Positions 21,630 to 51,436 of a stretch of 64,000 nucleotides of DNA are shown here, piece after piece. The notes under the pieces were generated by a model. It searched no databases and had not been told where the DNA came from. It saw nothing but the letters and a program-made list of their open reading frames with translations. Position 1 is the first letter of the stretch. Each line of letters opens with the position of its first letter. The position numbers and the translations under genes were made by a program. Origin of the DNA: Octopus sinensis (Eukaryota); assembly GCF_006345805.1 (NCBI RefSeq), contig NC_043012.1, positions 53,134,001-53,198,000 on the forward strand, read 5' to 3'.

Positions 21630-21665
21630 CTTTCTGTGGAAGAGCGTAGACTCGAAACGTTAAAG
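21630..21665 (+). ncRNA. Minimal hammerhead-ribozyme-like motif, core variant CUGUGGA
   Basis: cttt-CTGTGGA-a-gag..ctc-GAAA-cg-T-T-aaag: stem I, stem II and a palindromic stem III (AACGTT). Confidence 0.5.
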
Positions 21666-22318
21666 ACTTTTTCAATTCCCGAGCGTTATACTAATACATC
21701 AGTTTGTTTTCTACACCAACTGTCTTCGACTTTATCGTGAATTCTCCCTTTGTATGTATGTATGTATGTATGTATGTATGTATGTATGTGACTGTATCAA
21801 TGTGTATCATTGTGTTAATTTGAAAATAAAACGGTGCAAAGCAACTGCAGACAATCGAATGACTGACCGATAAATATTTTATGGTAAAAATATGCGAAGT
21901 GAGAGACAGTGTCTAGTAATTCTACATCATAAAACTATTACAAGTTTACCAATCACTTTACTCCATTTACTTACATTGAATATACCACGCCACTGAACGG
22001 GACCTACACATTGTATTTTTCGGTGCTAGATATAACGACCAAATTACACTCACGTTACACAATACCGGCTTTAAAAATGTGACACAGAATTTAGGATGCA
22101 GTCATGGTTGGATCGGTATTGTTGCAATGTCAGTTCAATCAGGTCAGACCCGCTCTCTCAGTCTCTCTTCTCACTCTCTCTCCACACACACACACACACA
22201 TATATATATATACACACATATATAAACATATACATATATATAAACATATACATATGCGAATATATATATATGTGCGTGTATGTGAGTGTAGTATATATAT
22301 ATATATATATAAATATAT

Positions 22319-22368
<50 letters not shown>

Positions 22369-22436
22369 ATATGTATATATATAGATATATAGATATAAAG
22401 ATATATATACATATGCATATACATATGCATATATAT

Positions 22437-22522
<86 letters not shown>

Positions 22523-23203
22523 TATATATTGTATTTCCTCAGATTAGTTTCATACGATTTTTAATAAAACGAATTCAGTAACACGTCTATAAACAGGAAA
22601 AGACAAGTTCAAATGACTGAAATAACAGGAAAATAGGCTCCTATTCAAAAGTATGTTTTCTCCTTCTTTCTTTCTATTTTTATCTATTTATTTTTTTATT
22701 TTATTAAATGATTGATACAAACCTCTAGCAAACGCATATTTCTAAATCCATTTATTATTTATTATTATTCCTTTGCATTGTCTCTTTTTTTGTATATGTG
22801 TGTATGTATGTATGTATGTATGTATGTATGTATGTATGTATGCATGTATAAATGCACACACACACACACACACACGTATGTACATCGATACACTAACATG
22901 TATATGGAAATGTTTCAAACATATACGTGTGTCCGTAAGCATATATGCGTATACATGTGTGCATGTGTATAAAACATATAATACAAAATATATTTGCTGT
23001 ACAATGCACATCTCCTCTCTCATATACACAAGTTATATTTCGTTCTGAATATGCTCAATGCGGACTGTAAAATTAATTAAATTAGACCTGTGGCCATGTT
23101 TATATCAAAGGAATTTTTACACTTTGTGGGAATATCAAATATATAATGCCATAATGCATATCAAATGTGTTGTATGTGTTTGTATGTATGTATATATATA
23201 TAT

Positions 23204-23235
<32 letters not shown>

Positions 23236-23509
23236 ATATTTATTTATTTATTATAAACTTAATATTATGTTTAATATTCAGTTTCGAAATGTTGTGGACA
23301 GAGATCGCACCAACTGGTGCATAAACAAACTGCATGCTGGGTGTGTCGGTCTATAATATATACGCTGTATTACTATATATACATGTACGCAAACAGACAG
23401 ACACACACACACACACACACACACACAAATAACACGCGCGCACACAAACACAGGTAAATCGAATATAAAAAACAACAAATGTCGAAAGGACATACACATT
23501 AAATGTATT

Positions 23510-23554
<45 letters not shown>

Positions 23555-23563
23555 TGTGTGTGC

Positions 23564-23620
<57 letters not shown>

Positions 23621-23627
23621 ATATATA

Positions 23628-25238
23628 CAGTTGCGGCCAAACTGTTCAGAACGGCATTGTTTTCGTCAGAAAAGTAGGTATATGTTTTTATCAAATTTGT
23701 TTTATATTCTATAATTTTCACAGACAATAAATACGATATTATTTGTTATTGTCTGAGATTCTGGTGTAATTTGAGAGGATAATAAAAAAGTTATGGATGA
23801 TTTTGTGATTTACTGCAAAACCCATGTCGGCCAAAAAGATCAGAACGGTTTTAGTATATTTAACCGTCGAACTCTAATGTTTTGAATTTGTTTACGTGAC
23901 AGTTCGTTTACTAAACATTAGTAAGAATATCTGCAGTGTACTTTGTTAATATAATGCCACTTACTCCGTTACCAATTTGTCAGCAGATTATTAAACTTCG
24001 AAAGAAGGATAATTTAAGTATTGGGTCTATTGCAAAGATTGTTAAGTCAAAAAGTGTTGTTCACCGTATTCTTAAGGTCTATGATGATTGTGGTTCGTGT
24101 GAAGCAAGAAAGTCTACAGGTAGGCCAAGAAAAACGACCAAGAGAGAAGATCGTGCTATGGTAAAGTTGGTTAAAAAGGACAGATTTAAAACTACTGCTG
24201 CTGTTTTTCGGGAAATGAGCATTGTACCGAAGAAAACTTTATCTCGAAAACCTGTGTCTCGTCCTTTAGTTGAACATGACCTACAAGCAAGAGCACCTGC
24301 AGTGAAGCCACTGATCAGCTCCAAGAATAAAAAGTGCCGTCTTACCTTTGCAACCGAACATGTGTTGTGGTCTCAAGAAAAATGGCAAACGGTGCATTTC
24401 AGTGATGAATCTAAGTCTACGTTATTTGGCTCAGATGGGAAAAGGTATGTTCATCGAAAAGCAGGTGAAAAATTGTCACCTAAATGCCTTAAGACTAGTG
24501 TTAAATTCGGTGGAGGAAGTGTCATGGTTTGGGGGATGATATCTGGAGATGTTGTGGGCCCTTTGCTGCGATTACATGGAAAGGTAAATGCAGGAGTTTA
24601 TAAACAACTTGTAAAAGATCATGTCTTGCCTGTGCTGAGAAATTCAACTAAGCGACCACCCATATTCATGCAGGACAATGCCCCATGTCACAAGGCTAAG
24701 GTGGTCATGAACTTCCTCAAGGCTTAAAAGGTTATTGTTATGGATTGGTCTGCTCAAAGCCCAGATCTCAATCCTATTGAAAATGTGTGGAATGTTCTAG
24801 GAGAACATTCGAAAGCCAGAAATCCTAAAACAACCGAGCAATTATGGAATGCCCTTCAGGAAGAATGGAATAAGACCACCCAGCTAGAAATTGAAAATTT
24901 AATTTCCCCATGCAGCCAAAAATGTCAAACTTTGATTGAAGCTAAAGGGCTTCACACTAAATATGAAATAATTCCAGCATTCTCTGTCACTTTTTGATTA
25001 TTTTGTTATTTTTTCAACCGTTCTGATCATTTTGGCCACCATGGGTTTTGCAGTAAATCACTAAATCATCCATAACTTTTGTATTATCCACTCAAATTAC
25101 ACCAAAATCTCATACAATACCAATTAATATTGTATTTATTGTCTGTGAAAATCATAGAATATTAAACAACTTTAATAAAAACTTATATCTACTTTTTTGA
25201 CGAAAACAATGCCGTTCTGAACATTTTGGCCGCAACTG
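23628..25238 (+). mobile_element. Full-length Tc1-family DNA transposon (1611 bp) with IR/DR-type ~220 bp TIRs
   Basis: TA|CAGTTGCGGCCAA ... TTGGCCGCAACTG|TA. Outer and inner direct repeats ggccaaa....tcagaacgg within each TIR. Confidence 0.95.
23954..24997 (+). pseudogene. Tc1 DD34E transposase with one internal stop (TAA at 24725-24727)
   Basis: GRPRKT, FSDESK, GGGSVMVWG, QDNAPCH and SPDLNPIENVW motifs. 34 residues lie between the second D and the E when read through the stop. Confidence 0.93.
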
Positions 25239-25350
25239 TATATATGCATATATATATAAATGCATATACATACATACACATATATATACATATATATATA
25301 ATATATATACATATACATATACATATACATATATATATATATATATATAT

Positions 25351-25728
25351 ATTTACAAGATAAGGGCAGAAGAAATATTCTAATGCCAAATATGCCGAAA
25401 CAAAAAATTGTCGATAACCATTATAATTTATGCGTCTCGAAACAAACCGATAGAAATCTCTAAAAAATTCGTTATTACCGTATTGGTCCAATTTCGGGGT
25501 TAATTCATAAGAGGAGAAAATTTTCTAGAGATTTCTATCGGTTTGTTTCGAGACGCATAAATTATAATGGTTATCGGCAATTTTTTGTTTCGGCATATTT
25601 GGCATTAGAATTTTTCTTCTGCCCTTATCTTGTAAATTATTAATAAATTTAACCTTTAAAGGTATTTTTTGATATGCTGGCCATTGATAAAATTTTTTTC
25701 CCGAAAAATTTTTTATCCTACATTAGTT
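25351..25728. repeat. Inverted repeat (~119 bp arms, ~50 bp spacer) plus tail; probable Penelope-like insertion
   Basis: 25351-25469 is inverted to 25519-25637. TA flanks. The tail resembles 2010-2060. Confidence 0.7.
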
Positions 25729-25849
25729 ATATATATATATATATATATAAAGTTAATCCAAACAAGAAAGCACAAAAAAACACAACAACGCGAGGACGTG
25801 GAACAAATACAGTATTATTGGACGCTCAGGAAAGAAGGAAAGAAGGAGG

Positions 25850-25884
25850 GTTTAACGTTTCGAGCGGAGCTCTTCGTCGGAAAC
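25850..25884 (-). ncRNA. Minimal hammerhead-like motif (core CCGACGA, U4C) in a short insert at about 25748-25955
   Basis: Minus strand: gttt-CCGACGA-a-gagc-tcc-gctc-GAAA-cg-T-T-aaac. Confidence 0.55.
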
Positions 25885-25978
25885 ATAGGAGAAGGAAAGA
25901 TCCAGAGAAAGGAAGACAGAGGAAAAAAATCGCCAACGGTACACACGAGGTCACATATATATATATATACATATATAT

Positions 25979-26028
<50 letters not shown>

Positions 26029-26060
26029 TTATATATATATATATATATATATATACTTAT

Positions 26061-26120
<60 letters not shown>

Positions 26121-26124
<4 letters not shown>

Positions 26125-26340
26125 GTTGTCCGGAAAGTTCGTGCCGATTTTATAGTAGCTTACCTTTCGACTCCCGGGAACCCCAATTTTGGGAAGAGGG
26201 TATTTTCAAGTTTAAGGAAAGTTGGAGACGCATTGTGCAACAAAATGGTTCATATTTGGTTGATTAAAATTGTAATGGCAAGTAGTTATTGACCTTTTTC
26301 TTTCCTTTAAAAATCGGCATGAACTTTCCGGACAGCCCAA
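26121..26340 (+). mobile_element. Mariner MITE, same family as 5011-5499 with a larger internal deletion
   Basis: TIRs ttgggttgtccggaaagttc / gaactttccggacagcccaa, inserted in (TA)n. Confidence 0.9.
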
Positions 26341-26906
26341 TATATATATATATATATATATATGAACATACAAACACTTACATAACTACATACATACATG
26401 CATACATATATGAATGCATTATGTATATACATACCCATTCACTATATATGTGTATTCATACGTATCTATCTATCTGTTATACACACTCCACACTCCCACA
26501 CACATATATGCATACATGTATGTGTGTGAAGTGAGTTGTTCTGTATGGAGACATGTATAAATGGTAATTTTGTATTTTACTATACCGAGTAATATTTCCT
26601 TTTCCGGTTGCCACTGATTCAATATAATAGTTCGCCCCCCCCACTCCGCTTTAAGCTCTTCTTTTGTTTATGTGGGGGAAGGAGTATGATAGAAGTAGTT
26701 TTGTTGTTTCATGTGATGCAGAGTATAAAAGTTCGAATTTAGCTAAAGTTTGATAATTTGTTTCGTTTTGGGTTTGCAAGATTCTTTATGTGAGTTCGTG
26801 TGTTGAAGCATATTCTGTTGTGTCTGGGAAAAGTCATTTTATTTTAGTGCCTTATAATTTGACGCACTCACCGGTAAAATTTCCACTTATACCTTATTTT
26901 TATTTT

Positions 26907-26946
26907 CCTAAAATTTTCGTTGAGTCATGCAATCTTTTCAATAGTC
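26907..26946 (-). ncRNA. Hammerhead-like motif with U3:A8 core (UUGAAAA) in an inverted repeat at 26813-27047
   Basis: Minus strand: cta-TTGAAAA-g-attgc.....tcaac-GAAA-at-T-T-tag. The plus-arm copy supplies gttgc-aagac-gcaa for stem II. Confidence 0.45.
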
Positions 26947-27420
26947 TCGAAAGTCAAGACTATTGAAAAGGTTGCAAGACGCAATTTTACCGGTGTGTTT
27001 AATTATAAGCCACAAGAAGAAAATGACTCTCCCCAGACACAACAGAACTGAATATTTTGTATTATACTTCTTGTTAAACGTCTGTATTTATCTTCGAAAT
27101 TAAACTGGGAATGGAAGTTTAAATTTAATTGAAGCTAACAACTCGTACATTGCATCTTTTTTTTTTTTGCCTCATCTGTAGCTTCACGTTTTAATATCCT
27201 CATATTCCGTCGGGACAGGCAGCTGAGAGGTAATATTATTTTGTTTTGTGCCAAAATTTGAAATCAATATTATTATTAGTTAGAGAATTTAAGGTGGTGA
27301 GCTGGCAGGATCTTATGCACGTCAGACAAAAGACTGCGGCATTTTGCCTGAGTTCAAATTTCGTTGAGGTCGACTTTGCTTTCTAGCCTTCCACAGTCGA
27401 TCAAATAAGCACTAGTTGAG

Positions 27421-27850
27421 GGATCTTTTCGGTTTGAACGGCAGTTTTTTCTAGCGGTGTCATATGAAATTGTCACCCATAATTATGACCCTAGTATCGA
27501 TCTATTGCATTTCAATCTGTTTTAGGTTTAGGGTTAGTTAGGGTTGGTTAGGGGTGGGGAGAAGGGTATCTTATTTTCTTCACAAATGTAAATAAACCCA
27601 ATCTGTTTCTTAAACGAGGGACATATTCATACGGCACAGAATGTTTTCAACTCAATAGACGTCATTGATTGGTTGAAATTGCAGAAATCGAAGGAAAAAA
27701 ACAACAAATATCTTACAAACTATAGAATTTTCTCAATAAAGCCAAGAGAAAAAGATGTTTTATAAACACATTCTACCAGTATACGAAGTTTAAAAGTGTT
27801 TAGTTACGTGGAAATTATTTTAAAAATTACCGTTCAAACCGAAAAGATCC
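27421..27850. mobile_element. GGATC MITE, short form, 9-bp TSD CTAGTTGAG, inserted in a SINE
   Basis: TSD on both sides. The empty-site sequence 'agcactagttgagcactggg' is seen at about 33212-33231. Confidence 0.9.
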
Positions 27851-27962
27851 CTAGTTGAGTACTGGGTTTAAAGTAATCTGGCTGCGCGTATCTGTGGATA
27901 GCTGAGCCACTTACATGCAAATTCAGTGAGCAGGTAAACAAGTTGATCGAAAAATTGAAAAA

Positions 27963-28106
27963 GTGAAGTTTGTGTATTAGCTCGAGTTGAGTTTGCTGTG
28001 AAGTCGGAAGGTGTCGGTTCGTTAGTTCGTTTGGAAGAGTGATTGTTGGTACGTGAAGAGATTATTGGATCGTTACGATGTTATTACTGTTGCATCGATA
28101 TCTTGG
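27963..28106 (+). repeat. Inverted partial copy of the adjacent Gypsy LTR
   Basis: Reverse complement of about 28479-28622. Confidence 0.85.
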
Positions 28107-28388
28107 GAGGAATGAATTGTGAGGTATGATGGCCAGAACAGAAACGGTTGGTGTGACATATTTTAGAAAGAAGGGTCGGGAGTGTAGTGTGAGATAACTA
28201 ATCGTTTTCGAGTTTGTAGCTATGGTTACACATATCCATCCATCCATCCATCCATCCATCCACACACACACAGTCTCACACATATCGTTTGGCTCTATTA
28301 TAATAAGGACGCTAATGTGAATATACCGCAGACAACAATACAATGTATAATAATATGAAACATCCGTATGAATTCATGCGCTACATGG

Positions 28389-30468
28389 TGTTGTATCCTC
28401 CGCCTCCAAATGTCGTGATACCGCTACGATATTATGAGGGATGGTTTAGATACACTGTACCAGTGTAGTAACAGTAAGCAAGATATCGATGCAACAGTAA
28501 TAACATCGTAGCGATCCAACAGCCTCTTCACGAACCAACAATCACTCTTCAAAACGAATTAACCAACCGACACCTTCCGACTTCACTGCAAACTCAACTC
28601 GAGCTAATACACAAACTTCACTCCGTCCGCTACTTTTTATAATCGTTTGGTCCAATCTGTTTCCCGCAAGGGGACATCGTGACTCTCATCATAACAACTC
28701 CCCTTTGAGATTTCGACTTCTTAAGAAGTGAAATTTATTTAATTTTTTTATTTTTACAGCACCTCTCCCTCTCTTTTTTTATTTTAAAAATTGGTATCCT
28801 TTTCGTTTTGGCATTATTTTTAAGTGTAAAGTCTGTTTCCTTCTACTTCTGACTCTACGAGGCACAATCTTTTCGGTGCTAGCACCTCAAATATGTCATA
28901 GCAGACTTCCATTGGTATCTCCTTTCGTTTTTCAGTATGTTTCGTCTTTAATTGGTTTAGATGTCTTTTATGTTTCCAACGTTATCCTTTAATTACATAC
29001 ATCATGTTTCCTAATCTTTTAGTTACAAAACCATCCTCCCAGCCTTCTTCACTATTTCTGTAAATTTTAAAATGAACTTTGTCTCCTACTTCGAAATATT
29101 TTGTTGCCTTTTCTGTATTTCCTTTAAATGTATTTCTTTCCTGGCAATAATTTATCGAAGATCGATTTTATTTTTCGCTCGAACATTAACTCTGCTTGAG
29201 ATTTTCCTGAACTGGTATTCGGATTGGACGTTACTCTATATACCCACAAGAATTTCGTCAGCGCTTCGTCATTACCTACGTCATTCCTTGTATTTTTTAA
29301 CGCTTGCTTGACAGTATCAACGAAGCTTTCTACCTGACCATTTGACCGTGGGTGGTAGTGTGGGGTAAAAAAAATATGCTTTATCGCATGTACTTTGCAG
29401 TAATTTTTGAATTCACGACCCGTAAATTGTGTTCCATTATCTGATACCAACGTGTCTGAAACACTGTATCGGGTAAATAATTCACACAGGAACTTTATTG
29501 TTGTCTTTGCGTTTGGTTTATTGCACCTGCATATATTTGACCACTCTGTACCGCTATCAACAACGACTAGTAAGTTCTTTAAGTTTAAAACTTTCACACA
29601 TTCGGTTGACTGTTTCTGCATTCGTAATAAAGTCATCATCCTCTTTAGTTGAATTCCAATACTTCATTCGAATGTTATATAAAGAAGTTTTATCACCGAA
29701 CATGTTAGATAGTAATTTGATTGTTTCCTGAAAACAAATTTCATTAGACTTTTTGGGCAATATGAAATTACAACATTGTTCATATTCAAACGGAACTAAT
29801 TTACGTAATAATAACCTTACTTTTTCTACGTCCGACCATGTTTTACAATCTTCTTTAAAAATCTCCTCGTACCTTCTGTAGTACGCTGCAAAGGTTATAC
29901 ACTCCTCTGGGTTATAACTGATTTCTGTAAAGGAGTTCTATATGCCGTCTGGCAAAATCGAATTTGCCGCATTTCGGACTTCTTTGCGTGTCGCTCCAAT
30001 AATTGTTGTCGTCGTAGTTGCTGCTGTACTAGTTGCTTCTGCAACTCTTGTTTTTGAAACTGTATTATAGAAGCTAATAAGTCATCCATCATTTAACAAG
30101 TTGTATCACGAACAAATTGTTAAATAACCTACATGAGATCGAAACCCTCGTCGCCAGATGTTGTATCCTCCGTTTCCAAACGTCGTGGTACCGCCACGAT
30201 GTTGCGACGGATGGTTTAGATTCACTGTACCTGTGTAGTAACAGTAAACAAGCTAACGATGCAGCTGTAATAACGTAACTATCGAACAATCTCTTCACAA
30301 ACCAACTGTCAATATTCCAAACGAACTAGCCAACCGACACTTTCCGACTTCACTGCGAACTCAACTCGAACCAACACACAAACTTCACTCCGACCGCTGT
30401 TATTTATAATCGCTCCGTCCAGTCTATTTCTCGCAAGGGAGCATCCTGACACTCAGCTCATCACAACA
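28389..30468 (-). mobile_element. Internally deleted Gypsy/Ty3 LTR retrotransposon (gag fused to integrase; PR, RT and RH lost)
   Basis: LTRs 30159-30468 and 28389-28696 (TG...CA), 5-bp TSD CATGG, PBS TGGCGACGAGG (tRNA-Ser type), PPT AAAGGGGAG. Integrase motifs VVVDS, SDNGTQF and YHPRSNGQVE. Gag remnant LLLRKL...ILPKK. Confidence 0.92.
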
Positions 30469-30929
30469 CATGGGAATTTCAAAGAATGTAGTCTCATGCT
30501 GTTATATATTATGTTTATGCATTATCTGTACAACTAGATTATGTCATTTCCAGTGTATTTAGATGTTTAACCATCTGTCTATTATACTTAGACCTAACTA
30601 ACGATATCGGGCATATCCGTGCCATTAATATTCATATATCAACATATTGTACAATGATCTATGTTAATAAAAACTGTAGTACCTCTAATTGTTCTGTCAT
30701 TTTGTGTATGTTAACAACACCGTTTGAGATTCATATGTATTTCTAGAACTGTTGCATTTTAATGAAATGTTTGTACCATCAGAGAAAACAAAACTGATAA
30801 AACTGAACAATGTTGCTAATTTAAGTATGTTAATAAGTTGGTTTTACATTCATACATCATGGTAATATTACATTATACATCTTGATAGCGAGCTGGTAGA
30901 ATCGTTAGTACCATTACCTCTCATAACCT

Positions 30930-30974
<45 letters not shown>

Positions 30975-31152
30975 GAAAAAAAAACACCTTTTATCAATTC
31001 AAAATGAATAATTAAATTACACCATCTAGAAAATTTATATAATATAAAAGTTAAAATTAAAATAACAATTAAAAAATAAAGATTAAGTAAATTACAAAAA
31101 TAATATACTGTATATAATAGGTAGAAAAACGACACGTGTTTCCCTCAAATAA

Positions 31153-31189
<37 letters not shown>

Positions 31190-31679
31190 ATGATGAACTA
31201 TTAACATTGTTATGTAGTAATAACATTATTATATATCTATGTGTTTTAACTCTTATACGTATGTGAATTTGTCATACTATGGCTTATTTAGCAGAAATAA
31301 AAATATAACCTTCATGGACAGCTCTACTGACCGCATCAGCTTCATAACACCACCATCCAACATCGCTCGTTTTATTAACACCCCAGCCAATATCACCATG
31401 CTTATCAGAAGGATGTCATCGTTATGAATACAATGATGTAAACCGGGCCACTAAAGGAAACTCTATTCATGGTCGCCCGATATGCAAGAAATAGTAGCCA
31501 AGTTTCCTGAAGCCATGTCCTATTGCTCTAAAAAGAAAAGATATAGCTTGACATTTTAAATCATAGAATTAGCTGAGTCTGCTTTCGCTTGCCTCTTATA
31601 TGTAGACCAAACCTGACTCAGATTGCTATGAATGTTATGATAAAGGCTGCAATAGCAATAAATACAAGGTGGTTTATAG

Positions 31680-32278
31680 GGCGGTGAGCCGGTTTAAACG
31701 TTAGCACGCCAGGCGTGATGCATAGCGGTATTTCGTCTGCCGTTACGTTCTGAGTTCAAATTCCGCCGAGGTCGACTTGGCCTCTCATCCTTTCGGGGTC
31801 GATTAAATAAGTACCAGTCACGTACTGGAGTCGATATAATCGACTTAATCCGTTTGTCTGTCCCTTTTTGTCCCTTCTGTGTTTAGCCCCTTGTGGGTAA
31901 TAATGAAATAGTTATTTCGTCTGCCGCTACGTTCTGAGTTCAAATTCCGCCGAGGTCGACTTTGCTTTTCATCCTTTCGGGGTCGATTAAATAAGTACCA
32001 GTCACGTACTGGGGTCGATATAATCGACTTAATCCGTTTGTCTGTCCCTTTTTGTCCCTTCTGTGTTTAGCCCCTTGTGGGTAGTAAAGAAATAGGTATT
32101 TCGTCTGCCGCTACGTTCTGAGTTCAAATTCCGTCGAGGTGGACTTTGCCTTTCATCCCTTCGGGGTCGATTAAATAAGTACCAGTTACGCCCTGGGGTC
32201 GATATAATCGACTTAATCCCTTTGTCTGTCCTTGTTTGTTCCCTCTATGTAGAGCCCTATGGGCGATAAAGAAATAAA
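31680..32278 (+). mobile_element. SINE family C, trimer of a 184-bp body unit
   Basis: One tRNA-like head, then three units starting 'tatttcgtctgccg' at 31729, 31913 and 32097. Confidence 0.85.
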
Positions 32279-32464
32279 TAGCAATATATACAACCATCAT
32301 CAAATATCAACCACATTATTAAAAATAATAGATAGATAAAGCGTGATTAATGATAATATCACCTCTAAGAATAATTACGATTGAGAAAACATTTTGAGAT
32401 GTCGCAGTTAAAACAGTTCTAGTCGGTGCCGTTAGATGACGAATTTGCACTTAAGTGTCTCTTA

Positions 32465-32629: not shown

Positions 32630-32673
<44 letters not shown>

Positions 32674-40075: not shown

Positions 40076-41465
40076 AATCGAGCAAATCGACCCCAGAACT
40101 TATTCTTTGTAAGCCTGGTACATATTCTGTCGGTCTCTTTTGCCGAACCGCTAAGTTACGGAGGGGTAAACACAACAGCATCAGTTGTCAAGCGATGTTG
40201 GGGGTACACAGACACACAAACACACACACACACACACGCACACACACACACATAGATAAATACGACGGGCTTCTTTTAGTTTCCGTGTACCAAATCCACT
40301 CATAAGGCTTTGGTCCGCCCGAGGCTATAGTAGAAGACACTTACCCAAGATACCACGCACTGGGACTGATCCCGGAACCATGTTGTTCGTAAGCAAGCTA
40401 CTTACCACTCAGCCACTCGTACGCCTTTCTGTTTTATTTTTTAGTATAAAATATTTGAAAATGGATGAATCTTTCTAACTTTTTGCATACATCATTTATT
40501 TTGTATATATTTTCCATTTTCATAACTTTATTCTTCATTGCATTAGATTTAATTGGAGAGGTGCGTTTCTGAAGAAGCTCAAAATATTGTTTCAATTTTC
40601 AATATAATCCCACAAATTTAGTGGGGGAGGGGTTAGTTGATTACATCGACCACAGTACTCGACAGGTATTTTATTTTACGACCGCGAAAGATGAAAGGCA
40701 ATTCTGCCAAGGTTTGTTAACCTCGGTGGAATTGGAACTCAAAACGTGAAGAGATAGAACAAAATGCCGCTAAGCGTTTTGTCCAAGGCGTTTACCTTCC
40801 TGCCAACTCGCTGCATTTTCCGTAGTGAAACATAACATTCAAAGCAACAATGGAGAATTTTCTTTGACCACATCTCTCTATGAACATCAAAGACTCACTC
40901 TGCTTATTAACGTCATCTCACATTCAATTTTCAGTCGTATTACGGATTGTATCGACTACATTACTCTCTTTCCGCATCTTCATTAAACGGTAGAATACAA
41001 TTTTCGCAGATTCAAATTGCAGTCACGAAACACAGTAAACAAGTGAAGACATTGAAATTTATATCACAGAATCTATGCAGCCTCGCCAAAAACTGTGAAT
41101 TTCGAGCTATAACCGCTGATGTATATCGAGAGGAGAGCATTAAAGATTCATTTCCTTCTGAAATTTCATCTGACCCTATTCAACATAATCATCACCCTTT
41201 ATCTTTTATCTGTTAACTGATTCAGTAATTGGACTGTGGCCGTACTGGATCACTACCTTAAAGGGGTTTAGTCGAATAAATGGGACCCAGTACTCATTTG
41301 TAAAAATAAATGGTACTTATTTCATCACTTTCTTTTGCCGAACCACTAGTTCACGGAGATGTAAATAAACCAACAACAGTTGTCACTCGGTTGGGGTAGA
41401 GACAAACGCAAAAACAAACTCACACACACACACACACATGCTCACACACACACACACAAACACAC

Positions 41466-41498
<33 letters not shown>

Positions 41499-42276
41499 CG
41501 ACGGGCTTCCATATAGCTTCCGTCAACCAATTTCATTCACAAGACATTGGTCGGGCCGGGGCTACAAAAGAAGACACCCAAAATTTTATGCTCTAGGACT
41601 GGAGCACAAACTACGTCGTTGTTGTAAATCGAACTTCTTTACACATCCATACCCGCGCCTATACATAGCCGTAATTGAAAATCGTTCATAGAATTTGGAA
41701 TATGTAATCACCCAAGTTCATTCTCTGGAAGCTGGTGAGAAAATACAGAGGCTTAGAAGTGATGAACAACAACAAAGGTAAAGACCCGCTCTCTTAGAAA
41801 TGTTGAGTTCATGAACAAACCAACCCATGTATGCAAATATATCATTTTTGAGCTGGTCTCACCCATGATCACTCTGTTTCTCCAGCAAAGGAACAAAACT
41901 TGCCCCAATCTGTAATCAAGCTGGATATTTTTCATGAGTATGTCGGTCAAGAAGAGCCACAACTTCAGCTCCTACAGTCTTCGATAAAACGAAAGTACAA
42001 CAAAGAAAGGGACCTGTAAATATTACTAACTAAAGACAGAAGAAATGTTAAGCATTTTGCTCGGCATTCGAACGATTCTGCCAGTTCACCGCCTTGTATT
42101 GATAAAAGAAGTGAACTAGAGCCAGTGCGTGTGTTTATTATTGACATAATGACCCTCCCTAGATTCAACAAGATCTGTTTCAGAACACGAGTTCAAATCA
42201 AGAACAGTCTTCGTATTTTCCAAACATTAAAATAATTTGAAATCAATCCGGCATAATTTTTTAACGTTTATTAACA

Positions 42277-42888
42277 GGTGCAGATATGGTTGTGAGGCTA
42301 GGAAGCCCGCTTTGCAACCATGTGGTTCAGTCTCACTATGCAGCACTTGAGCAAGTGTCTTCTGTTTCGGTCCTGACTAAATTTCGTAGACGGGAACTGT
42401 GTGGGAACATACAGGATATATGTGTGTGCGCGCGTGATCATGTGTGTGTGTGTGTGTGTGTGCGCGTGCGTGTATGTGCGTGTGTGTGTGTACGTGTATG
42501 TGCGTGTGTGTGTGTACGTGTATGTGCGCGCGTGTGTGTGTACGTGTATGTGCGTGTGTGTGTGTGTACACGTATGTGCGCGTGTGTGTGTGTACGTGTA
42601 TGTGCGTGTGTGTGTGTGTACGTGTATGTGCGTGCGTGCGTATGTGTGTGTGTGTGTGTATTTGAGTTTGCATTTGCGTTTCCCTCCCACCACTGCTTGA
42701 CAGGAAGCGTTGGCTTGTTTCTATCCCTATAACTTAGCGATCCGGCAAAAGATACCGATAGAATAAGTACCAGCCAGACTTTAAAAAATAAGTGCTAGGC
42801 TCGATTTGTTTGAATGAAACTTTTATAGTGATGCCCCAGCATGACCGCAGTCCAGTGACTGAAACGAGTAACAGATACAAGATAAAGA
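42277..42888 (+). mobile_element. SINE family B copy with an expanded compound (TG/TACG) tract
   Basis: Same head and tail as 32465-32912. Confidence 0.7.
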
Positions 42889-43870
42889 AACTTAATGACC
42901 CCTTGGTGATCGCATGATCGAGCCTTCAGTTTTTCTATACTGAACAGAAGTGATATTAGCAAAAACTCGTACCAAACAACGCCCTCTTATCGGTTCTTCA
43001 CAAATGATAAATTGCTACCGTTTTCTAGATTAACCATTTCCTAATACTGAAGATCTCAGGCGTTCTATTTTCTACATTAAATTTTACAGCAAACTGAATC
43101 TGAAAGCAGCATTCTATCAGATTCCATTCCACAATGATGATGCGAGTTACGCTACGTTTCTTGCCGATGTTGTGAGTGTTGTTCAATGTTTGATAAATAT
43201 TATAATTGTTGACAAAAGAATCAAAGGAGTTTCTACCTATCTCGATAATGTTATTTTCATTGACAAACCTATTAAGAAACACAATAGGAACTTGGCTTAA
43301 TTTATATCGATTATTAAAAGACTCAGCATTTCACCGAACAACAACATCAAATATCTTCTCTGCTAAACATCCATTTGTTACCTAGGCTACAAAAGAGAAA
43401 ATAATTCTCTACTACCTGATTCAAAAAGCTTAAAACTCCCTGTTTGATTACTTGACGCCTAGCAATGTTAAATAGTATCAACGACGACTGGTTTTATGTA
43501 GTTACTACTCTGTATAGGGGATTTCTCCTTCGGAACTAAACAACCCCCGTCGAAATTCTACATCACCATTGTAGAAAAAGACACTTTTTATTTGCTTCGA
43601 ACTTCAATAGTTAATACCTTTCTTTCTTACTTACCTTACATAAATTGTTACAATATGCTGAGATCAACGTTGCTGGAACTACAATTAAGGATGTCATTTC
43701 CTTTCTTTGAGTTACTTTTCGTCTTGAGCAAAATTTCTCGTAATCTGAGAAGGAAACTATTTCTATCATAGAAAGTATTGGGAGATAAACGTTTCTACTT
43801 AGAGACCGCTTTATATTACACTGATCAACAATTGGTCTTATTCTAGCCAGAAATGTGGAAGAAATATAAA

Positions 43871-44279
43871 GGCGGTGAGCTGGCAGAAACGTTAGCACGC
43901 CGGGCGAAATGCGTAGCCACATTTCGTCTGCCGTTATGTTCTGAGTTCAAATTCCGCCGAGGTCGACTTTGCCTTTCATCCTTTCGGGATCGATTAAATA
44001 AGTTACGTACTGGGGTGGATATAATCGACTTAATCCGTTTGTCTGTTTTTGTTTGTTCTCTCTGTGTTTAGCCCCTTGTGGGTAGTAAACAAATAGGTAT
44101 TTCGTCTGCCGCTACGTTCTGAGTTCAAATTCCGCCGAGGTCGACTTTGCCTTTCATCCTTTCGGGGTCGATTATATAAGTACCAGTTACGCACTGGGAT
44201 CGATATAATCGACTTAATCCGTTTGTCTGTCATTCTTTGTCCTCTCTGTGTTTAGCCCCTTGTGGGTAGTAAAGAAATA
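43871..44279 (+). mobile_element. SINE family C dimer, TSD about AAGAAATATAAA
   Basis: Head plus two body units. The duplicated flank overlaps the A-rich tail. Confidence 0.85.
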
Positions 44280-44909
44280 AGAAATATAAAGAGAGGCGAG
44301 ACTCCTCGTTGAGACATTGAGCTATCGCTCCACAACCGTGGCATGACTGATAAAAATAATAGAGCTGCTGATATTCCTACCAGGTGTTCCTGTATAGCAT
44401 CCTCTCTCTTACTTCTGCATAAGCCTTTGTGTTATCATTGAGAGACACGATTATGACGCTAAGAGAACTTGCTACTTTCTGTAGAAGTTGTTAGAAACAC
44501 TTGTGACGAATGCATCTTATGTTGTGAATTGAAAACAGGACTGGACAATCCACGTCATGTAAAGCCTACCAAGTTCATGTGCTAATGTAAGCCTCTAGGT
44601 ATCGTTTTTAAAGGTCCTCTACCGTCATATAACACTTACGGCTTTAATACCGCTAAACTCTGATTATTGATCTATACTTAAGTTTTCACATTACTGTTAC
44701 ATGAATACAACTACTGATACAGTATTACGATATCTTCAAAATTCTTCATGTCTGGTACTCAGGCCTTCAATCCATTCGGATTGATGATCCTAATTTATAT
44801 CTCAAAACGTTTGTTGATCTTTGAAAGAACAATAATAATATTCAAACTTGAGAAGTTCCATCCCCTAATCTGGGAATAGTTAGGTAGGACGTTTTAATGA
44901 ACAAATTTG

Positions 44910-45327
44910 GGATCTTTTCGGTTTGAACGGCAGTTTTTAAAATAATTTCCACGTAACTAAAAAATTTTAAACTTCGTATACTGGTAGACTGTGTTTATAA
45001 AACATCTTTTTCTCTTGGCTTTATTGAGAAAATTCTTTAATTTGTTAGATATTTGTTGTTTTTTTCTTCAATTTCTGCAATTACAACCAATCAGTAACGT
45101 CTATTGAGTTAAAAAGCATTCTGTGCCATATGAATATGTCCCTTGTTTAAGAAACAGATTGGGTTTATTTACATTTGTGAAAAAAAAAAGATACCCTTCC
45201 CCCCACCCCTAACCCTAACCCTAAAAACAGATTGAAATGCAATAGATCGATACTAGGGTCATAATTATGGGTGACAATTTCATATGACACCGCTAGAATA
45301 AAACTGCCGTTCAAACCGAAAAGATAC
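44910..45327. mobile_element. GGATC MITE, short form
   Basis: TIRs and CCCTAA core present. TSD not clean. Confidence 0.85.
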
Positions 45328-46340
45328 ATTTCTTGTTTTTGCTCTGAGGTAAATGTGGCATCTCATGAACTACCATTTTTTCAAAGTCATTCGTCAACGA
45401 AACAGTCTTTATATAAATGGTTGTCTGAACCGGAAGGAGTTCGGTTTAAACGATTTAAATCTAACAATGAATATGAACCGAAAATCGATCATGTTAAACT
45501 GACTGATGCTATTTGATGCTATTTATTGCTGCGCTCAGATCAAATACCCAGATGGTCGAATTGACACTGTATCAGCGAAACATGTTCTTCGAACACAGAA
45601 CTCGAAGTTTTGAGCTAAATAAAAAGATTTGGTAATTCTCTGAATTTGTTTCTCGCAGTAACTGCAGCCGTAGTCATTTATGCAGGAACATATTTACTTT
45701 TGGTCTACTTAAAATAGATTAGCAAATTATCAAATAACTCTAGAACACAGCTTGCGTTACATAATCATAATCTGGCAAGAATGAATTTCTTTTTTTACAG
45801 AAACACTAACGTTTCAAGCTTCCTAGCCACCAACAACAAAAAAAAAGAAAGATAAGTTAAAGAAAAAATAGTAAATCACTGAACAAACTTCACAAAGAAA
45901 TCAATAATTCTTTTAGAAATGAATATTATCTACAGATTTTTATGCAGTCAAGAATTATAAAACTTTAAGATTATTACAGCTATACAAACACGGCACTTGC
46001 ATGTCGGCTCGCAATACATTTACAAGAAGGAACCAGCAAAAGAGAACTCAGCGCTCTCATTCCAGATAACAGTCCAATGTTCCAAAGTCTTAAAATTGGG
46101 AAGGATACATTAAAGAATGTAGTCTTATATATTTAATATAAACAACACGGAAATATTTCAATATGCTACAGAGAACAAAAGATTGATGTCCCAACAAAAT
46201 TATCCGTGGTAATCGAGTTGCTGTTTGACGGTGAGCGGACGAAATGCTTAACGTTCTGAGTTCAAATTCCGCCGAGGTCGACTTTGCCTTTCATCCTTTC
46301 GGGGTCGATAAATTAAGTACCAGTTACGCACTGGGGTCTG

Positions 46341-46743
46341 GGATCTTTTCGGTTAGAACGGCAGTTTTTCTAGCGGTGTCATATGAAATTGTCCCCCATA
46401 ATTATGACCCTAGTATCGATCTATTGCATTTCAATCTGTTTTAGGTTTAGGGTTAGGGGTGGGGGGAAAGGTATCTTTTTTCTTCAGAAATGTAAATAAA
46501 CCCAATCTGTTTCATAAACGAGGGACATATTCATACGGCACAGAATGTTTTCACCTCAATAGACGTCATTGATTGCAGAAATTGAAGAAAAGTACAACAA
46601 ATATCTTACAAACTATAGAATTTTCTCAATAAAGCCAAGAGAAAAAGATGTTTTATAAACACATTCTACTAGTATATGAAGTTAAAAATTTTTTAGTAAC
46701 CTAGAAATTATGTTAAAAACTGCCGTTCAAACCGAAAAGATCC
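46341..46743. mobile_element. GGATC MITE, short form, 8-bp TSD GG(G/A)GTCTG, inside SINE C
   Basis: TIRs and a TSD with one mismatch. Confidence 0.88.
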
Positions 46744-46799
46744 GGAGTCTGTCCTTGTTTCTCCTCTCTGTGTTTAGCCCCTTGAGAAATAGGTAACTG

Positions 46800-47620
46800 G
46801 GTTGCTCTTGAGCAGCTTTTCAAATCTACTCAGCTATTCGATCTTGCGAGCTACTTGCCTTTATATTTTATGCTGGCTTAGATTTGCAACTAGATAAGTT
46901 GTTTATGACCTTCCATACTGTGGTGATATCTCTATTGTTATTTACTTCTTTCATACGTTTCTCTTCGGTTTTTGTTTTGCACTGTATTGCTGAGCTAAAT
47001 CTAAGGACGAGGCAGCTACAGCAGTAGTGTTGCAGCAATCTTGTTCCCTATATTTGTTCGTTTCACAGCTGCTAGAGTGTTTCAGTCTTCCGGAACTTTG
47101 GCATCCTCTTAGGACATTTTTCTCAATAGCTTATGCAACAGACTTCGAGAATGTTGTGTGGTGTATTCCTTCAAGTGGTCAGAAGGTTCTTCTTTCAGTT
47201 CGGCAAATCTATTCTTGCATGTTTCAATACAGGACGTCTAAGTGTCTGGGTCGGATATGGAGGACCAGGTATATTGAGGTAGGGTTTTGCTCTTCATTTG
47301 CATCGTGGCAATCAGGATCCGATGATCTGATTCGAATGAACGAAATGTGTAGGTATTGCAATATCGAATAAAATCACGATGCTTTCGATGAAAATGTGGC
47401 CAATTTGTGGTCGTGTTTTGCGTAGGGTTTGTGCATCAAAAGTTTGTCAAGGCAGTTGCGGAAAGCTGTGTTTGCAAAGAAGAGTGCAATTGCTGGCAAG
47501 AAATGTGAGAAGCTATTATTTAGGCTTGCCTGAAAATACCCATGGGTTTTGTTGTGAGGTCTGTAGACGTGCATTCCAGTCACCGAGGATGGCTTCATCG
47601 TGAGCTAACGGTCATTCACA
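46800..47620 (-). pseudogene. LINE (RTE-like) endonuclease/linker remnant
   Basis: LFFANTAFRN...H segment followed by an SD-containing segment, resembling the end of an RTE-type APE domain. Many stops. Confidence 0.45.
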
Positions 47621-48956
47621 CGAGTAATGTCTCGTAAAATGATCTTGCATGTGGACTGGAAAACCCTGCCGCTGGTCCAAGACCGCAGCCACGAAATCTC
47701 CAATGAAAGACATACTGACTACTTCAGAGTCAGAGCTGGGCAACTCTAACGGGCTTGGAACAATGACAACTCTTGAATTTACTCTAAACCGACTCGCCCT
47801 CTGATCAACCCTAGACTATTCACCCTTCTGGCCTCCTTCAATGCTCTTACGCTGAACTTACTCTGGAGACAAGGCGAACTAACCGCAAAAGCAGACAGAC
47901 TTGGCATCGCAGCCGCTGGCATTTAAGAACACAGAATTAGATGTGAAGAGAAAGATTGATTTCTGGATACAGACAAGGGCTGGAAGCTGATACACTCTGC
48001 GGAAGATGACACTGGTAACGTTGGCGTTGGTCATCCTTCATCCCCTTACCTAAGTGTCCCTAGGGTCCATCACATTAATATCTCAGCGGGTACTCATCTA
48101 CAGATTTCCCAGGAGTAAGAAATCTCACAAGTCGTGGCCTAAACCAACCAATACACTCACCAATTAGTATAACGAGAGAAGACATAAATATATTTTCTGA
48201 TAACATGCAGCGAATCTTCGATACCGTTGGACGAAATTACTTTCTACCAAACCTCGGTAATTGAAAAGCAACACACTACATCACATACCAGAACCAACAT
48301 GGGGAACGCGATTGTTAAACGGGGTAGAAATAGCTGCCAAATCTCTCTCAAATTACAACCTGTGTCTTACAGAAGGACACACTTGATAATATAGTTTTGG
48401 GATCCTTTCCTATTGGGGAAAAATACAGATGGTCGTGCCTGTAACGTCTTTGGTTATAATTTTGCTGAATTAGGGCGAACCTTGTGATAAATGACAACTA
48501 CCACGGTCATTTACATCACGTGATTTAAAACAAAAGTAAATAAGAAAATATTAGTGAACAACACGTGATATTAAATAGAATTCTCCCCAAATCTTGAAAA
48601 GCTTTAACATAATCGCCAGCACGATTATCATTATCAACAACACATTAAGCAGTTGTTTCAATGGCATTAGAAATATCCTCAAAATTCATGTTAATAACAC
48701 CATAAAATCGTTTTGAGATAATGTCAAAGAATATAAATTGTGAATTTCTGTCTCAGTGGACATAGTTATATTTTGGTGTTTCTTTCTGAAGGCTAAATGA
48801 GAATATATATAAATTTTCACATACATACGTAAGTACATAAGTACATACATACATACATGCGTATAGGCATGCACACATGCATGCGCACATACATGTACAC
48901 ACGTGCATTCATACGCACATACATGCATACATACATACGTACGTACATATATATCT

Positions 48957-49172
48957 ATTTCTTTATTACCCACAAGGGGACAAACAAGGACAGACAAACG
49001 GATTAAGTCGATTATATCGACCCCAGTGCATAACTGATACTTAATTTATCGACCCCGAAAGGATGAAAGGCAAATTCGACCTCGGCGGAATTTGAACTCA
49101 GAACGTAGCGGCAGACGAAATACCGCTAAATATTTCGCCCAGCGTGCTAACGATTCTGCCAGCTCACCACCT
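48957..49172 (-). mobile_element. SINE family C monomer
   Basis: Reverse complement of the head plus one unit of 43871-44090. Confidence 0.85.
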
Positions 49173-49228
49173 TATACGTACATATATATCATGAACTAAC
49201 TGTTACTTTCTCAGATGCAGCACGAAGT

Positions 49229-49279
49229 TTTGTCAGTGAACAGGTCACGGTCTCAAAGCGACGAAAATATTTTGACAAA
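49229..49279 (+). ncRNA. Minimal hammerhead-like motif with G3:C8 core (GUGAACA)
   Basis: tttgtca-GTGAACA-g-gtcac..gcgac-GAAA-atat-T-T-tgacaaa: 7-bp stem I, stem II at 4 of 5 pairs, palindromic stem III. Confidence 0.6.
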
Positions 49280-50212
49280 TTAAATTTAAATGTTGAAGTG
49301 AATCTAACGGTTTTTGTGTGTTTCTTAAATGGCTTATAAACTCCATCCACGCTGCAAGTGTTTTCGTTCCAGCACACGATCTCAGATCAAGTCACTCGCT
49401 ATGCAAGTACATCTCCGTAATATATAAATTTTGTTGACTGAGAAAGTGTTCAATTGAATTTATTAGAATTTATCAGAATTCTGTGTCAGTACGCTGCAGG
49501 ATAGAGAAAAATATAAACAAATTATAATTCACTCCGCATAAAAAAACAAAACAAGACATCACTTCAATAAATCACATCATCCTCCTCAGTCTATACATAT
49601 AAATATGGAACATTGAAAATAGATTTGATAAATAAACATTTTAAATGACTTTTAAGGAAAAGAAAGATCACACTTTGAAATTTTATTCGATTCTGAAATG
49701 TTCACAGCAATCAGAATTGAGAATAATAACAGAGAATTCTAAAATGATGGGACAATTGAAAATTGAGTCATAAAAATTAAACCCCGCAACAGGTGTAAAA
49801 TAATTAAAATATTCATTAATCAAAAATTTAGGAAGATTGTGAAAATTTTGTATACATGTGAGATAGATCAGCCGTAGGATGGTTTTACAGCTGTCTGCAT
49901 TTGATATTTTAAGTCTGCATTCAATTCAGAAATGTCACAAGTTATCTGAATTACAATTTGTGATAAGCCACAGATTTTGAAAACAGAAAAACGGGTCGTA
50001 AAAATTAAATCTTGTAACAGTTTAGTGCAGGTATGGTTGTGTGGTTAAGAAGCTGGTTTCGGGTTCATCTCCAGAACTGCATAGTACCTTGGGCGAGTGT
50101 CCTTTACTATAGTCCCGGGCTGACCAATGCCTTGTGAATGAATTTGGTAGACAGAAACTGTGTAGAAGCCTGTCATATATATTTGTATATATATATATAT
50201 ATATATTTAAAA

Positions 50213-50740
50213 AAAGGAGATGTCGAACACGAGTGGTGATATATAAAAAAGGAAATGAAGAAAATGCTGACAAATAATTGAAGTAATTTAAGTAATTTAA
50301 TTAGGTGAAAGTTCTTTTTACCGGTTGCGCATTTGTTATGCTTATCAAAATATAAAAGAGAGATTAGAGTCTGTCTCTTATATGTGAAAAAAAGAGGCTC
50401 CAGAGTTGTTTTGGATTTGCTTGGTTCGCGCCTAAAATTTTGATTGGTCATTATGAAGGGGTCACGTGAATGTTTGAATGGAAGTTGGTGTTGGGGTAAG
50501 AAAAAAGGCTCCAGAGAAGTTAAAATTTGGCTAGTGTCCCGCCTAAAATTTCTTATTGGTCATAATAAAGAGGTCACGTGAATGTTTAGAATTTTCGAAA
50601 ATAGTGTTGTTGAAAATTCTTATTGTTCAGGCTGGTCAGTAGACGTCATGTGGATTATTAAATAGCTTTTTAGCGCGTAGTTAGGGAGTGTATTTTCCGC
50701 TTGACTGGATAAGTAAGTTCGTTTAGAACAGGGAGAGCTG
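50213..50740 (-). mobile_element. Penelope-like element 3' fragment with a U3:A8 hammerhead-like motif (50313-50360)
   Basis: Minus strand ORF end ...LPVLNELTYPVKRKIHSLTTR*, then tt-TTGATAA-gcat-aacaa-atgc-GCAA-ccgg-T-A-aa. TA flanks. Confidence 0.5.
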
Positions 50741-50786
50741 TATATATATTATATATATATATATATATAATATATATATATATATA

Positions 50787-51289
50787 TTGGGTTGTTCGGA
50801 AAGTTCGTGCCGACTTATAGCAGCTTACCTTTCGATTTATTTTAGAACATGGTTGAGTCAATAAAATAGGATTTGACTACACCTCCATTTAGAGCACAGT
50901 TTCTTGGAAGAAGGTGTATGTTCCTATAACCTGTGTTAATTCTGTAACCCTTTAAAATGAAAGATAAGGAAGTTCATTTTCGACACTTGATGCTTTGGGA
51001 ACCAGACAAATATTGCTGCAGCTCGGCTGGGACGTGTTACCCCACCCTCCGTATTCACCAGATATTCCTCCTTCGGATTTCCACTTATTCAGGTATCTGC
51101 AGAATAGTCTTAATGGTAAAAATTTCAATTCCTTGGATGACGTAAAAAGATACCTTCAAGTTAAAGGAAAGATGGAGACGCACTGTGCAACAAAATGTTT
51201 CATATCTGGTTGATTATAAATGTAATGGCAAGTATTTATTGACCCTTTTCTTTCCTTTAAAATTCGGCGAGAACTTTCCGAACAACGCA

Positions 51290-51290
<1 letters not shown>
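50787..51290 (+). mobile_element. Mariner deletion derivative (family of 5011-5499)
   Basis: TIRs in (TA)n. Keeps the start MKDKEVHFRHLML and PHPPYSPDIPPSDFHLF. Confidence 0.9.
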
Positions 51291-51327
<37 letters not shown>

Positions 51328-51385
51328 TATATAGAAGGAGCTTCTACAGGACTAGTACTGTTTCATTCAAGAGAAATCTTCAGGA

Positions 51386-51436
51386 AGCTTCCTGAAGATT
51401 TCTCTTGAATGAAACAGTACTAGTCCTGTAGAAGCT
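51386..51436 (+). ncRNA. Type I hammerhead ribozyme motif inside a perfect 132-bp palindrome (51322-51453)
   Basis: agcttc-CTGAAGA-t-ttc-tctt-gaa-t-GAAA-cag-tactagtc-ctg-T-A-gaagct. 6-bp stem I, 4-bp stem III, predicted cleavage after 51430. Mirrored on the minus strand. Confidence 0.7.

What the first reader, a model, noticed from the sequence alone, without database searches (positions are those of the whole stretch)
21630..51436. Several minimal hammerhead ribozyme folds whose 3:8 tertiary pair covaries (C-G, U-A, G-C) across unrelated short inserts
Seen: at least six short inserts with unrelated sequence share one fold of stem I, a 7-nt core, stem II, GAAA, a palindromic stem III, UH and stem I'. 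Cores are CUGUGGA (21634, +), CCGACGA (25880, -), UUGAAAA (about 26940, -), GUGAACA (49236, +), UUGAUAA (about 50348, -, with GCAA) and CUGAAGA (51392, +). A 3' half GAAAC-acgt-GTC is at 31131-31142 (-). Established: positions 3 and 8 form a tertiary Watson-Crick pair in the active hammerhead, and Penelope-like retroelements carry minimal hammerheads that cleave as dimers through palindromic stem III. Inference: every motif keeps 3:8 complementarity, which implies selection for catalysis in the source families and a diverse population of ribozyme-bearing retroposons. Standard CUGANGA searches would miss the variants.
Basis: partly seen in the sequence, partly recalled or inferred. Interest (0 to 1): 0.75.

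Follow-up and report, generated by a model that had tools for sequence, protein, structure and literature searches.

The report
Swapped-core hammerheads in Penelope retrotransposons
The short inserts are end pieces of several families of Penelope-like jumping genes, each with a hammerhead-shaped RNA motif that likely cuts itself (cutting untested); one key base pair of the catalytic core stays complementary across families, and one abundant family has it flipped to G-C, a form I found in print only as a lab-made mutant.

Summary
The motifs are real. All six sites and the 3' half belong to seven high-copy repeat families; four trace to Penelope-like element (PLE) ORF sequence. In a random 1.2 Mb of the genome, a descriptor with positions 3 and 8 free gave 43 hits against 3 in reversed DNA; 32 of 43 were Watson-Crick at 3:8. 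All 17 hammerhead-like families I assembled have a Watson-Crick consensus: 10 C-G, 6 U-A, 1 G-C. Minimal PLE hammerheads and U3-A8 are published (PMC4209133, PMC3088659). Natural G3-C8 (about 1,500 exact-pattern copies) and a family-wide U6/C6 core were not found in my searches; Lünse 2016 was unreadable. Caveats: 21634 and 25880 are related; the U-A families partly share one origin, so independent swaps may be only two or three; a G3·G8 subfamily also spread; two families carry likely damaging changes (A6U; A13C with a 2-bp stem I); 45 of 58 sampled copies span the uncut ribozyme. Cleavage is untested. This scan noted the same G3-C8 variant earlier, in this genome and elsewhere. Verdict: new variant of a known kind, moderate interest.

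The parts
21630..21665 (+). Minimal type I hammerhead, C3-G8, U6 instead of A6, in a ~160-bp 5'-truncated PLE 3' end
   Evidence: 19 of 19 random copies C:G and 0 of 19 A6. RT/GIY-YIG remnants upstream on the same strand in L237, L194, L006.
25850..25884 (-). Minimal hammerhead, C3-G8, U4C subfamily; related to the 21634 family; insert about 25751-25953
   Evidence: Longer copies extend upstream into CA-rich DNA; no ORF reached.
26908..26944 (-). Minimal hammerhead, U3-A8; stem II decayed in this copy; in the long arm of a two-armed insertion (arms 26813-27047)
   Evidence: Family fold; arms. No ORF link found.
31128..31142 (-). 3' half of a hammerhead; the copy is 5'-truncated at G12; the full family motif is canonical C3-G8 with a long stem II
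   Evidence: 6 of 7 other fetched loci show the upstream core region; no ORF hit in the 8 loci.
49229..49279 (+). Minimal hammerhead with G3-C8, 7-bp stem I, 5-bp family stem II, palindromic stem III; terminal repeat of a PLE (insert about 49185-49421)
   Evidence: 1683 pattern copies; 92 of the first 100 listed are G3-C8; 1565 of 1683 have C8. Two copies flank a broken RT/GIY-YIG ORF in L159.
49329..49421 (+). First ~31 codons of the G3-C8 family's PLE ORF; the insert ends here
   Evidence: tblastn 87% identity to the L159 ORF start.
50313..50359 (-). Atypical hammerhead-like motif: U3-A8, C13 instead of A13, only 2 bp of adjacent stem I; inside a ~530-bp solo terminal repeat (about 50210-50738) of a very young PLE
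   Evidence: Identical in 22 of 25 closest copies. The repeat flanks RT + GIY-YIG elements in L156-L158.
51386..51436 (+). Type I hammerhead with canonical core, 6-bp stem I, U·U at 10.1-11.1, 4-bp stem III; mirror copy at 51339-51389 on the minus strand
   Evidence: Positions that vary between subfamilies are N7 and the loops.
51322..51521 (.). Two-armed (head-to-head) PLE-type insertion: perfect 66+66-nt palindrome plus a ~68-nt tail on one arm, in (TA)n
   Evidence: Longer copies reach a GIY-YIG remnant in L197, L333, L332.

Best explanation
The inserts are terminal fragments of seven repeat families, four of which trace to Penelope-like retrotransposon ORFs and the rest likely Penelope-derived; each carries a hammerhead-shaped motif that would likely cut its own RNA weakly, and the family consensuses keep the 3:8 pair Watson-Crick as C-G, U-A or G-C. 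Shown: the folds, the family-level 3:8 states, the ORF links, the one-sided tails and the (TA)n targets. From the literature: 3:8 is a pair of the active core and the 2'-OH at position 8 is the proposed general acid, so a double swap can keep activity; C3G/G8C partly rescues a PLE hammerhead. Inferred: source lineages were selected to keep a cleavage-competent core, working slowly as dimers through the palindromic stem III or with help from the element's protein. Cleavage is not what defines the inserted copies: reverse transcription starts at two internal sites downstream and reads through the uncut ribozyme, sometimes giving head-to-head arms. Selection is loose, so U6/C6, C4, C13 and a G3·G8 subfamily could spread.
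For: 43 hits in 1.2 Mb against 3 in reversed DNA; 32 of 43 Watson-Crick. Of the 11 others, 4 are mutated copies in Watson-Crick families, 5 are single-copy and 2 overlap a (GAT)n repeat tail. 17 of 17 family consensuses are Watson-Crick; permutation p = 7e-5 for a 10/4/1 split, 0.01-0.03 after hard collapsing of related families. Subfamily variation falls mainly at N7, H17 and loops. ORF links. No change at or above 5% is listed at core places 49236-49242 in runs labelled as four other organisms (5 rows not shown). Literature.
Against: No cleavage data. Independent swaps may number only two or three. 118 of 1683 copies of the G3 family lack C8; among the first 100 listed, G8 (58, of which 22 on one contig) outnumbers the transition T8 (29) and A8 (13), so a mismatched lineage multiplied. 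A6 is absent in 19 of 19 random copies of the most abundant family, and natural A6C is slow. The young 50348 family has C13 and a 2-bp stem I, and related subfamilies do not keep the displaced stem I. Only 1 of 58 copies starts at the cleavage site. Three of seven families have no ORF link. Folding gave all three predicted helices only for the 51392 copy; stems I and II formed in the 49236 family, and other copies gave partial or alternative folds.
Confidence: 0.72

Rival explanations
1. The motifs are PLE hammerhead homologues kept mainly as a structure (a protein-binding or folding element near the start of the transcript or ORF), with cleavage dispensable or lost in several families; 3:8 complementarity is inherited from a few old swaps.
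For: Insertions derive from uncut RNA. Hammerhead mutants do not affect PAc insertion in vitro, and no RNA-seq ends mark its cleavage site. Naiad PLEs thrive without canonical hammerheads. U6/C6, C13 and G3·G8 lineages spread.
Against: Every family-level change at 3 or 8 found here is a double, complementary change; no major family is fixed for a single mismatch. G5, A9, G12 and A14-A15 stay fixed across families with unrelated flanks, although the descriptor partly enforces this.
Confidence: 0.22
2. The palindromic inserts at 26940 and 51392 are DNA-transposon MITEs and the hammerhead folds are chance matches in AT-rich repeats.
For: Both are near-perfect foldbacks in TA-rich sites. The window descriptor count alone is near chance. 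My first reading of 26940 was this one.
Against: The arms are unequal, with a tail on one; junctions vary; longer arms of the 51392 family reach a GIY-YIG remnant. Real DNA gives 43 hits against 3 in reversed DNA.
Confidence: 0.04

Closest known systems
Minimal hammerheads (min-HHR) of metazoan PLEs, Cervera and De la Peña 2014 (PMC4209133; main text parts 1-2 of 4 and supplement parts 1-2 of 3 read)
   Same: Type I topology, short stem I, extra base after A9, G10.1-C11.1, palindromic stem III, many families per genome, mostly solo truncated copies; U3-A8 in about 1,300 S. mansoni hits.
   Different: Their 56-motif alignment has C3-G8, U3-A8 and one U3·G8, but no G3-C8 and no U6, C4 or C13 core; no cephalopod is included.
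PAc (Poseidon of Anolis) and its hammerhead, Frangieh et al. 2024 (PMC11167929; parts 1-2 of 4 read)
   Same: Ribozyme near the ORF start, one-sided tail from two reverse-transcription start sites, AT-rich targets, uncut RNA as template.
   Different: PAc is C3-G8 and G3-C8 there is an engineered partial rescue; here G3-C8 is the natural state of a family.
Natural hammerhead core variants, Perreault et al. 2011 (PMC3088659; passages and part 3 of 8 read)
   Same: Natural U3-A8, A6C, U10.1-U11.1; U4C known from a viroid.
   Different: Rare single examples, mostly microbial; no G3-C8, U6 or C13 in the passages I read.
Small dimeric PLE hammerhead variants, Lünse, Weinberg and Breaker 2016 (PMC5785218; not held, seen only as a citation in PMC6765202)
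   Same: By its title, numerous small PLE-associated variants that cleave as dimers.
   Different: Unknown. It may already list G3-C8 or U6 variants; this is the main gap in the novelty claim.
Animal non-LTR retrozymes (bioRxiv 10.64898/2026.07.22.740005; part 1 of 5 read)
   Same: Type I hammerheads in PLE-derived non-coding repeats.
   Different: Retrozymes are tandem arrays; the window inserts are solo or two-armed fragments.

Membership tests
PLE minimal hammerhead (min-HHR) | Type I fold: stem I next to the core, stem II, GAAA, UH | tested here: met
   Met at family level for 21634, 25880, 26940, 31131, 49236, 51392; 50348 is listed apart.
PLE minimal hammerhead (min-HHR) | Stem I of 3 bp or more and intact GAAA, for the 50348 family | tested here: not met
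   2 bp adjacent and C13. Not filed as a regular member; a related PLE has a regular U3-A8 motif at the like position.
PLE minimal hammerhead (min-HHR) | Core CUGANGA or the published U3-A8 variant | tested here: inconclusive
   Met for 51392, 31131, 26940 and the broad 25880 family; 49236 (G3-C8) and 21634 (U6/C6) deviate at family level, hence 'variant'.
PLE minimal hammerhead (min-HHR) | Palindromic stem III | tested here: met
   4-8-nt palindromes in six families; 51392 has a 4-bp stem with a partly palindromic loop.
PLE minimal hammerhead (min-HHR) | Self-cleavage after H17 as a dimer | not testable with these tools
   Needs in vitro transcription and cleavage assays.
Penelope-like element | RT plus C-terminal GIY-YIG ORF on the ribozyme's strand | tested here: met
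   50348: Pfam RVT_1 and GIY-YIG above cut-off. 49236: weak RVT_1 and GIY-YIG below cut-off. 21634: 31% to that RT. 51392: a GIY-YIG-type motif read by eye, with no Pfam hit.
Penelope-like element | ORF link for the 25880, 26940 and 31131 families | tested here: inconclusive
   No contiguous ORF in the loci fetched.
Penelope-like element | Terminal direct repeats, inverted 5'-truncated arm, one-sided tail, microsatellite targets | tested here: met
   Direct and inverted repeats in L156-L159; two-armed copies with a tail in (TA)n.
Non-LTR retrozyme | Tandem array of hammerhead-bearing units | tested here: not met
   One copy of each family in the window; only occasional tandem pairs elsewhere.
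MITE (foldback DNA transposon) | Equal terminal inverted repeats and a fixed internal structure | tested here: not met
   Unequal arms and variable junctions; long arms reach PLE coding sequence for 51392.

The most novel reading that the evidence does not exclude
This genome holds a natural mutational scan of the hammerhead core. A G3-C8 ribozyme, known in the papers I could search only as an engineered rescue, is the fixed and active core of a PLE family with thousands of copies. The most abundant family (about 40,000 copies by extrapolation from 19 per 1.2 Mb) cleaves with U6 or C6, and a currently mobile family with C13, because the element's own protein completes the active fold. CUGANGA-based surveys would then miss a large share of animal hammerheads.
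Probability: 0.3. Interest if true: 0.62.

Novelty: new variant of a known kind. Interest (0 to 1): 0.4.

Why it matters
The role of hammerheads in PLEs is open: they are near-universal in canonical PLEs, weak in vitro, and dispensable for insertion in the one reconstituted system. Independent complementary swaps at a pair that matters in the active core are a comparative argument that the fold was selected for catalysis. Successful families with U6, C13 or G3·G8 give natural test cases for how much cleavage is needed. In practice, descriptors should free positions 3, 6 and 8: among the 43 strict hits only 4 had a fully canonical C3-G8 core. The general picture is already published, so the gain is incremental.

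Tried and rejected
Rfam scan: no hammerhead among the 150 matches shown of 205. My first reading of 26940 as a MITE arm without a ribozyme was wrong and was dropped. The A3-U8 hit at 50582+ is antisense inside the 50348 repeat with U6 and a 3-bp stem II, so it was treated as chance; no convincing A3-U8 family was found. In the relaxed census, 11 of 25 multi-locus clusters were dropped: 9 had a 2-nt stem III and 2 were single places fetched in overlapping loci. Ten of the 11 were non-Watson-Crick, and reversed DNA gave 3 similar clusters; this filter was set after seeing the list. A link of the U3-A8 motif in L217 to the nearby endonuclease was rejected as a separate insertion. One pattern search had a letter too many and gave only 3 insertion variants. 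No family tree was built; relatedness rests on pairwise protein identity. Sequencing-run search: no RNA holder listed, contigs only, so nothing on expression or cleavage. Energy folding was not decisive. Searches for natural G3-C8 or cephalopod hammerheads gave only engineered G3-C8; Lünse 2016 and Przybilski 2007 were not held, and their text and supplements could overturn the novelty.
Full report
Setting. The window is G000:C16:53134001-53198000 of a 2.7-Gb animal genome. Earlier scan notes call it octopus; I did not verify the organism. It is AT-rich and full of microsatellites.

Observation. In the window alone a loose descriptor gave 4 hits against a mean of 2.1 in 30 shuffles, so the window is not decisive. 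Each site, however, belongs to a high-copy family: first-look candidates number 3332, 842, 1205, 3753, 555, 1006 and 1149. In each search 40 candidates were scored and 8-30 loci fetched.

Family states. 21634: C3-G8 in 19 of 19 copies from random DNA; position 6 is U (17) or C (2), never A, while N7 takes all four bases. 25880: C3-G8 in 8 of 9; U4C in 2 of 9 random copies but 24 of the 25 closest; it is related to 21634. 26940: U3-A8 in 4 of 5, with a 5-bp family stem II that has decayed in the window copy. 49236: G3-C8 in 7 of 8 random copies and 92 of the first 100 of 1683 pattern matches; the backwards pattern gave 0. 50348: U3-A8 with C13 and a 2-bp stem I, identical in 22 of 25 closest copies. 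51392 and 31131: canonical C3-G8.

Unbiased census. I fetched 120 evenly spaced 10-kb stretches. A descriptor with 3 and 8 free and one further core change allowed gave 43 hits against 3 in the same DNA reversed. At 3:8, 32 of 43 were Watson-Crick: C-G 19, U-A 7, G-C 5, A-U 1. Of the other 11, four are mutated copies inside Watson-Crick families, five are single-copy, and two overlap a (GAT)n repeat tail that has 5 copies. A relaxed run over all 2.0 Mb in hand gave 25 multi-locus clusters. The 14 with a stem III of 4 nt or more at two or more distinct places were all Watson-Crick; 11 were dropped, and none of the 3 control clusters passed. The filter was chosen after seeing the list. Adding 31131, 50348 and two small families, and removing the antisense A-U hit, gives 17 families: 10 C-G, 6 U-A, 1 G-C. 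Permuting position 8 gives p = 7e-5 for a 10/4/1 split, and only 0.01-0.03 when related families are collapsed hard. Families are not independent, so the latter figures are the fairer ones.

What the inserts are. The 50348 repeat flanks ~4.5-kb elements with RT and GIY-YIG domains, and inverted arms occur. Two copies of the 49236 repeat flank a broken RT/GIY-YIG ORF whose first 31 codons lie inside the repeat, including in the window. Long copies of the 21634 family follow an RT/GIY-YIG remnant on the same strand. Long arms of the 51392 family reach a GIY-YIG-type remnant, recognised by its motif without a Pfam hit. No ORF was reached for 25880, 26940 or 31131. The palindromes at 26940 and 51392 are head-to-head arms of unequal length in (TA)n. 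This matches the inverted 5'-truncated copy and tail described for PLEs (passages of PMC8557442). In the 51392 family a TATAAA lies about 30 nt upstream of the usual junction, so the junction may mark the transcript's start. That is inference, and an earlier scan note (e1-9529720) proposed the same.

How it likely works. Positions 3 and 8 pair in the active core, and the 2'-OH at 8 is the proposed general acid (passages of PMC6155905), so complementary swaps can preserve activity. In a PLE hammerhead, single C3G or G8C mutants are dead and the double mutant is partly rescued; cleavage there needs the protein and is not required for insertion. My data fit this: of 58 random copies from six families, 45 span the whole core and 1 starts at the cleavage site (after discarding TA-repeat hits). 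The most likely reading is a slow, dimer- or protein-assisted ribozyme under real but loose selection, copied from uncut RNA.

Against. Three U-A families share an ACCGGU stem III and proteins 51-72% identical to the 50348 element, so they probably stem from one swap. Of 1683 copies of the G3 family, 118 lack C8; in the first 100 listed G8 is 58, T8 29 and A8 13, and 22 of the G8 copies lie on one contig. Natural A6C is slow. That A13 changes are strongly harmful is recalled, not checked. Related subfamilies in three other runs keep the 50348 core block but not its displaced stem I.

Comparison and novelty. Minimal PLE hammerheads and U3-A8 are published. The 56-motif supplement alignment has no G3-C8 and no U6, C4 or C13 core. 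Seven paper searches found G3-C8 only as an engineered variant (PMC3884650 passages). The most relevant paper, Lünse 2016, could not be read. G3 and C8 show no listed change in runs labelled as four other organisms. This scan reported the same G3-C8 variant before; those notes are unchecked and are not independent support.

Verdict. Real; new variant of a known kind; interest 0.40.

Noticed in passing
G000:C20, about 2.0-7.0 Mb and 17.4-17.7 Mb; L085, L088, L098: A G3·G8 mismatched subfamily of the 49236 family: 22 of 58 listed copies on one contig, one with endonuclease sequence upstream. Local hopping of a likely ribozyme-dead element, or host duplication.
   Followed up: partly
L312-L318, about 30 nt upstream of the hammerhead of the 51392 family: A TATAAA motif is kept while its flanks diverge; the head-to-head junction usually falls at the 5' strand of stem I, suggesting the transcript starts at the ribozyme.
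   Followed up: partly
window 49194-49214 (+): A branch-point-like motif, pyrimidine tract and CAG lie just upstream of the G3-C8 hammerhead; possibly an intron 3' end, as described for D. virilis Penelope.
   Followed up: no
window 50387-50587: Two diverged ~112-bp internal direct repeats in the 50348 terminal repeat, each with CCAAT-like and CACGTG motifs; a candidate internal promoter upstream of the motif.
   Followed up: no
L212:6529-7504 (-) and L095: Tandem ~488-bp units, each with a C3-G8 hammerhead carrying C6; retrozyme-like.
   Followed up: no
L036, L096, L244, L300, L339-L345: Several families with canonical cores have very long stem II inserts (50-75 nt between A9 and G12), which short-stem descriptors would miss.
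   Followed up: no
L151:1200-1620: Two two-armed insertions of the 51392 family from different subfamilies sit tail-to-tail across a (TA)n tract.
   Followed up: no
window 23915-24727 (+): Tc1/mariner-type transposase remnant (Pfam HTH_Tnp_Tc3_2).
   Followed up: partly
window 29124-29937 (-): Gypsy-type retroelement remnant: integrase core and DUF7083.
   Followed up: partly
window 21088-21160 (+) and 58781-58850 (-): Weak tRNA-like Rfam matches (32 and 25 bits), probably SINE heads.
   Followed up: no
window 3034-3076 (+): A second short fragment of the 49236 family, downstream of the ribozyme.
   Followed up: no
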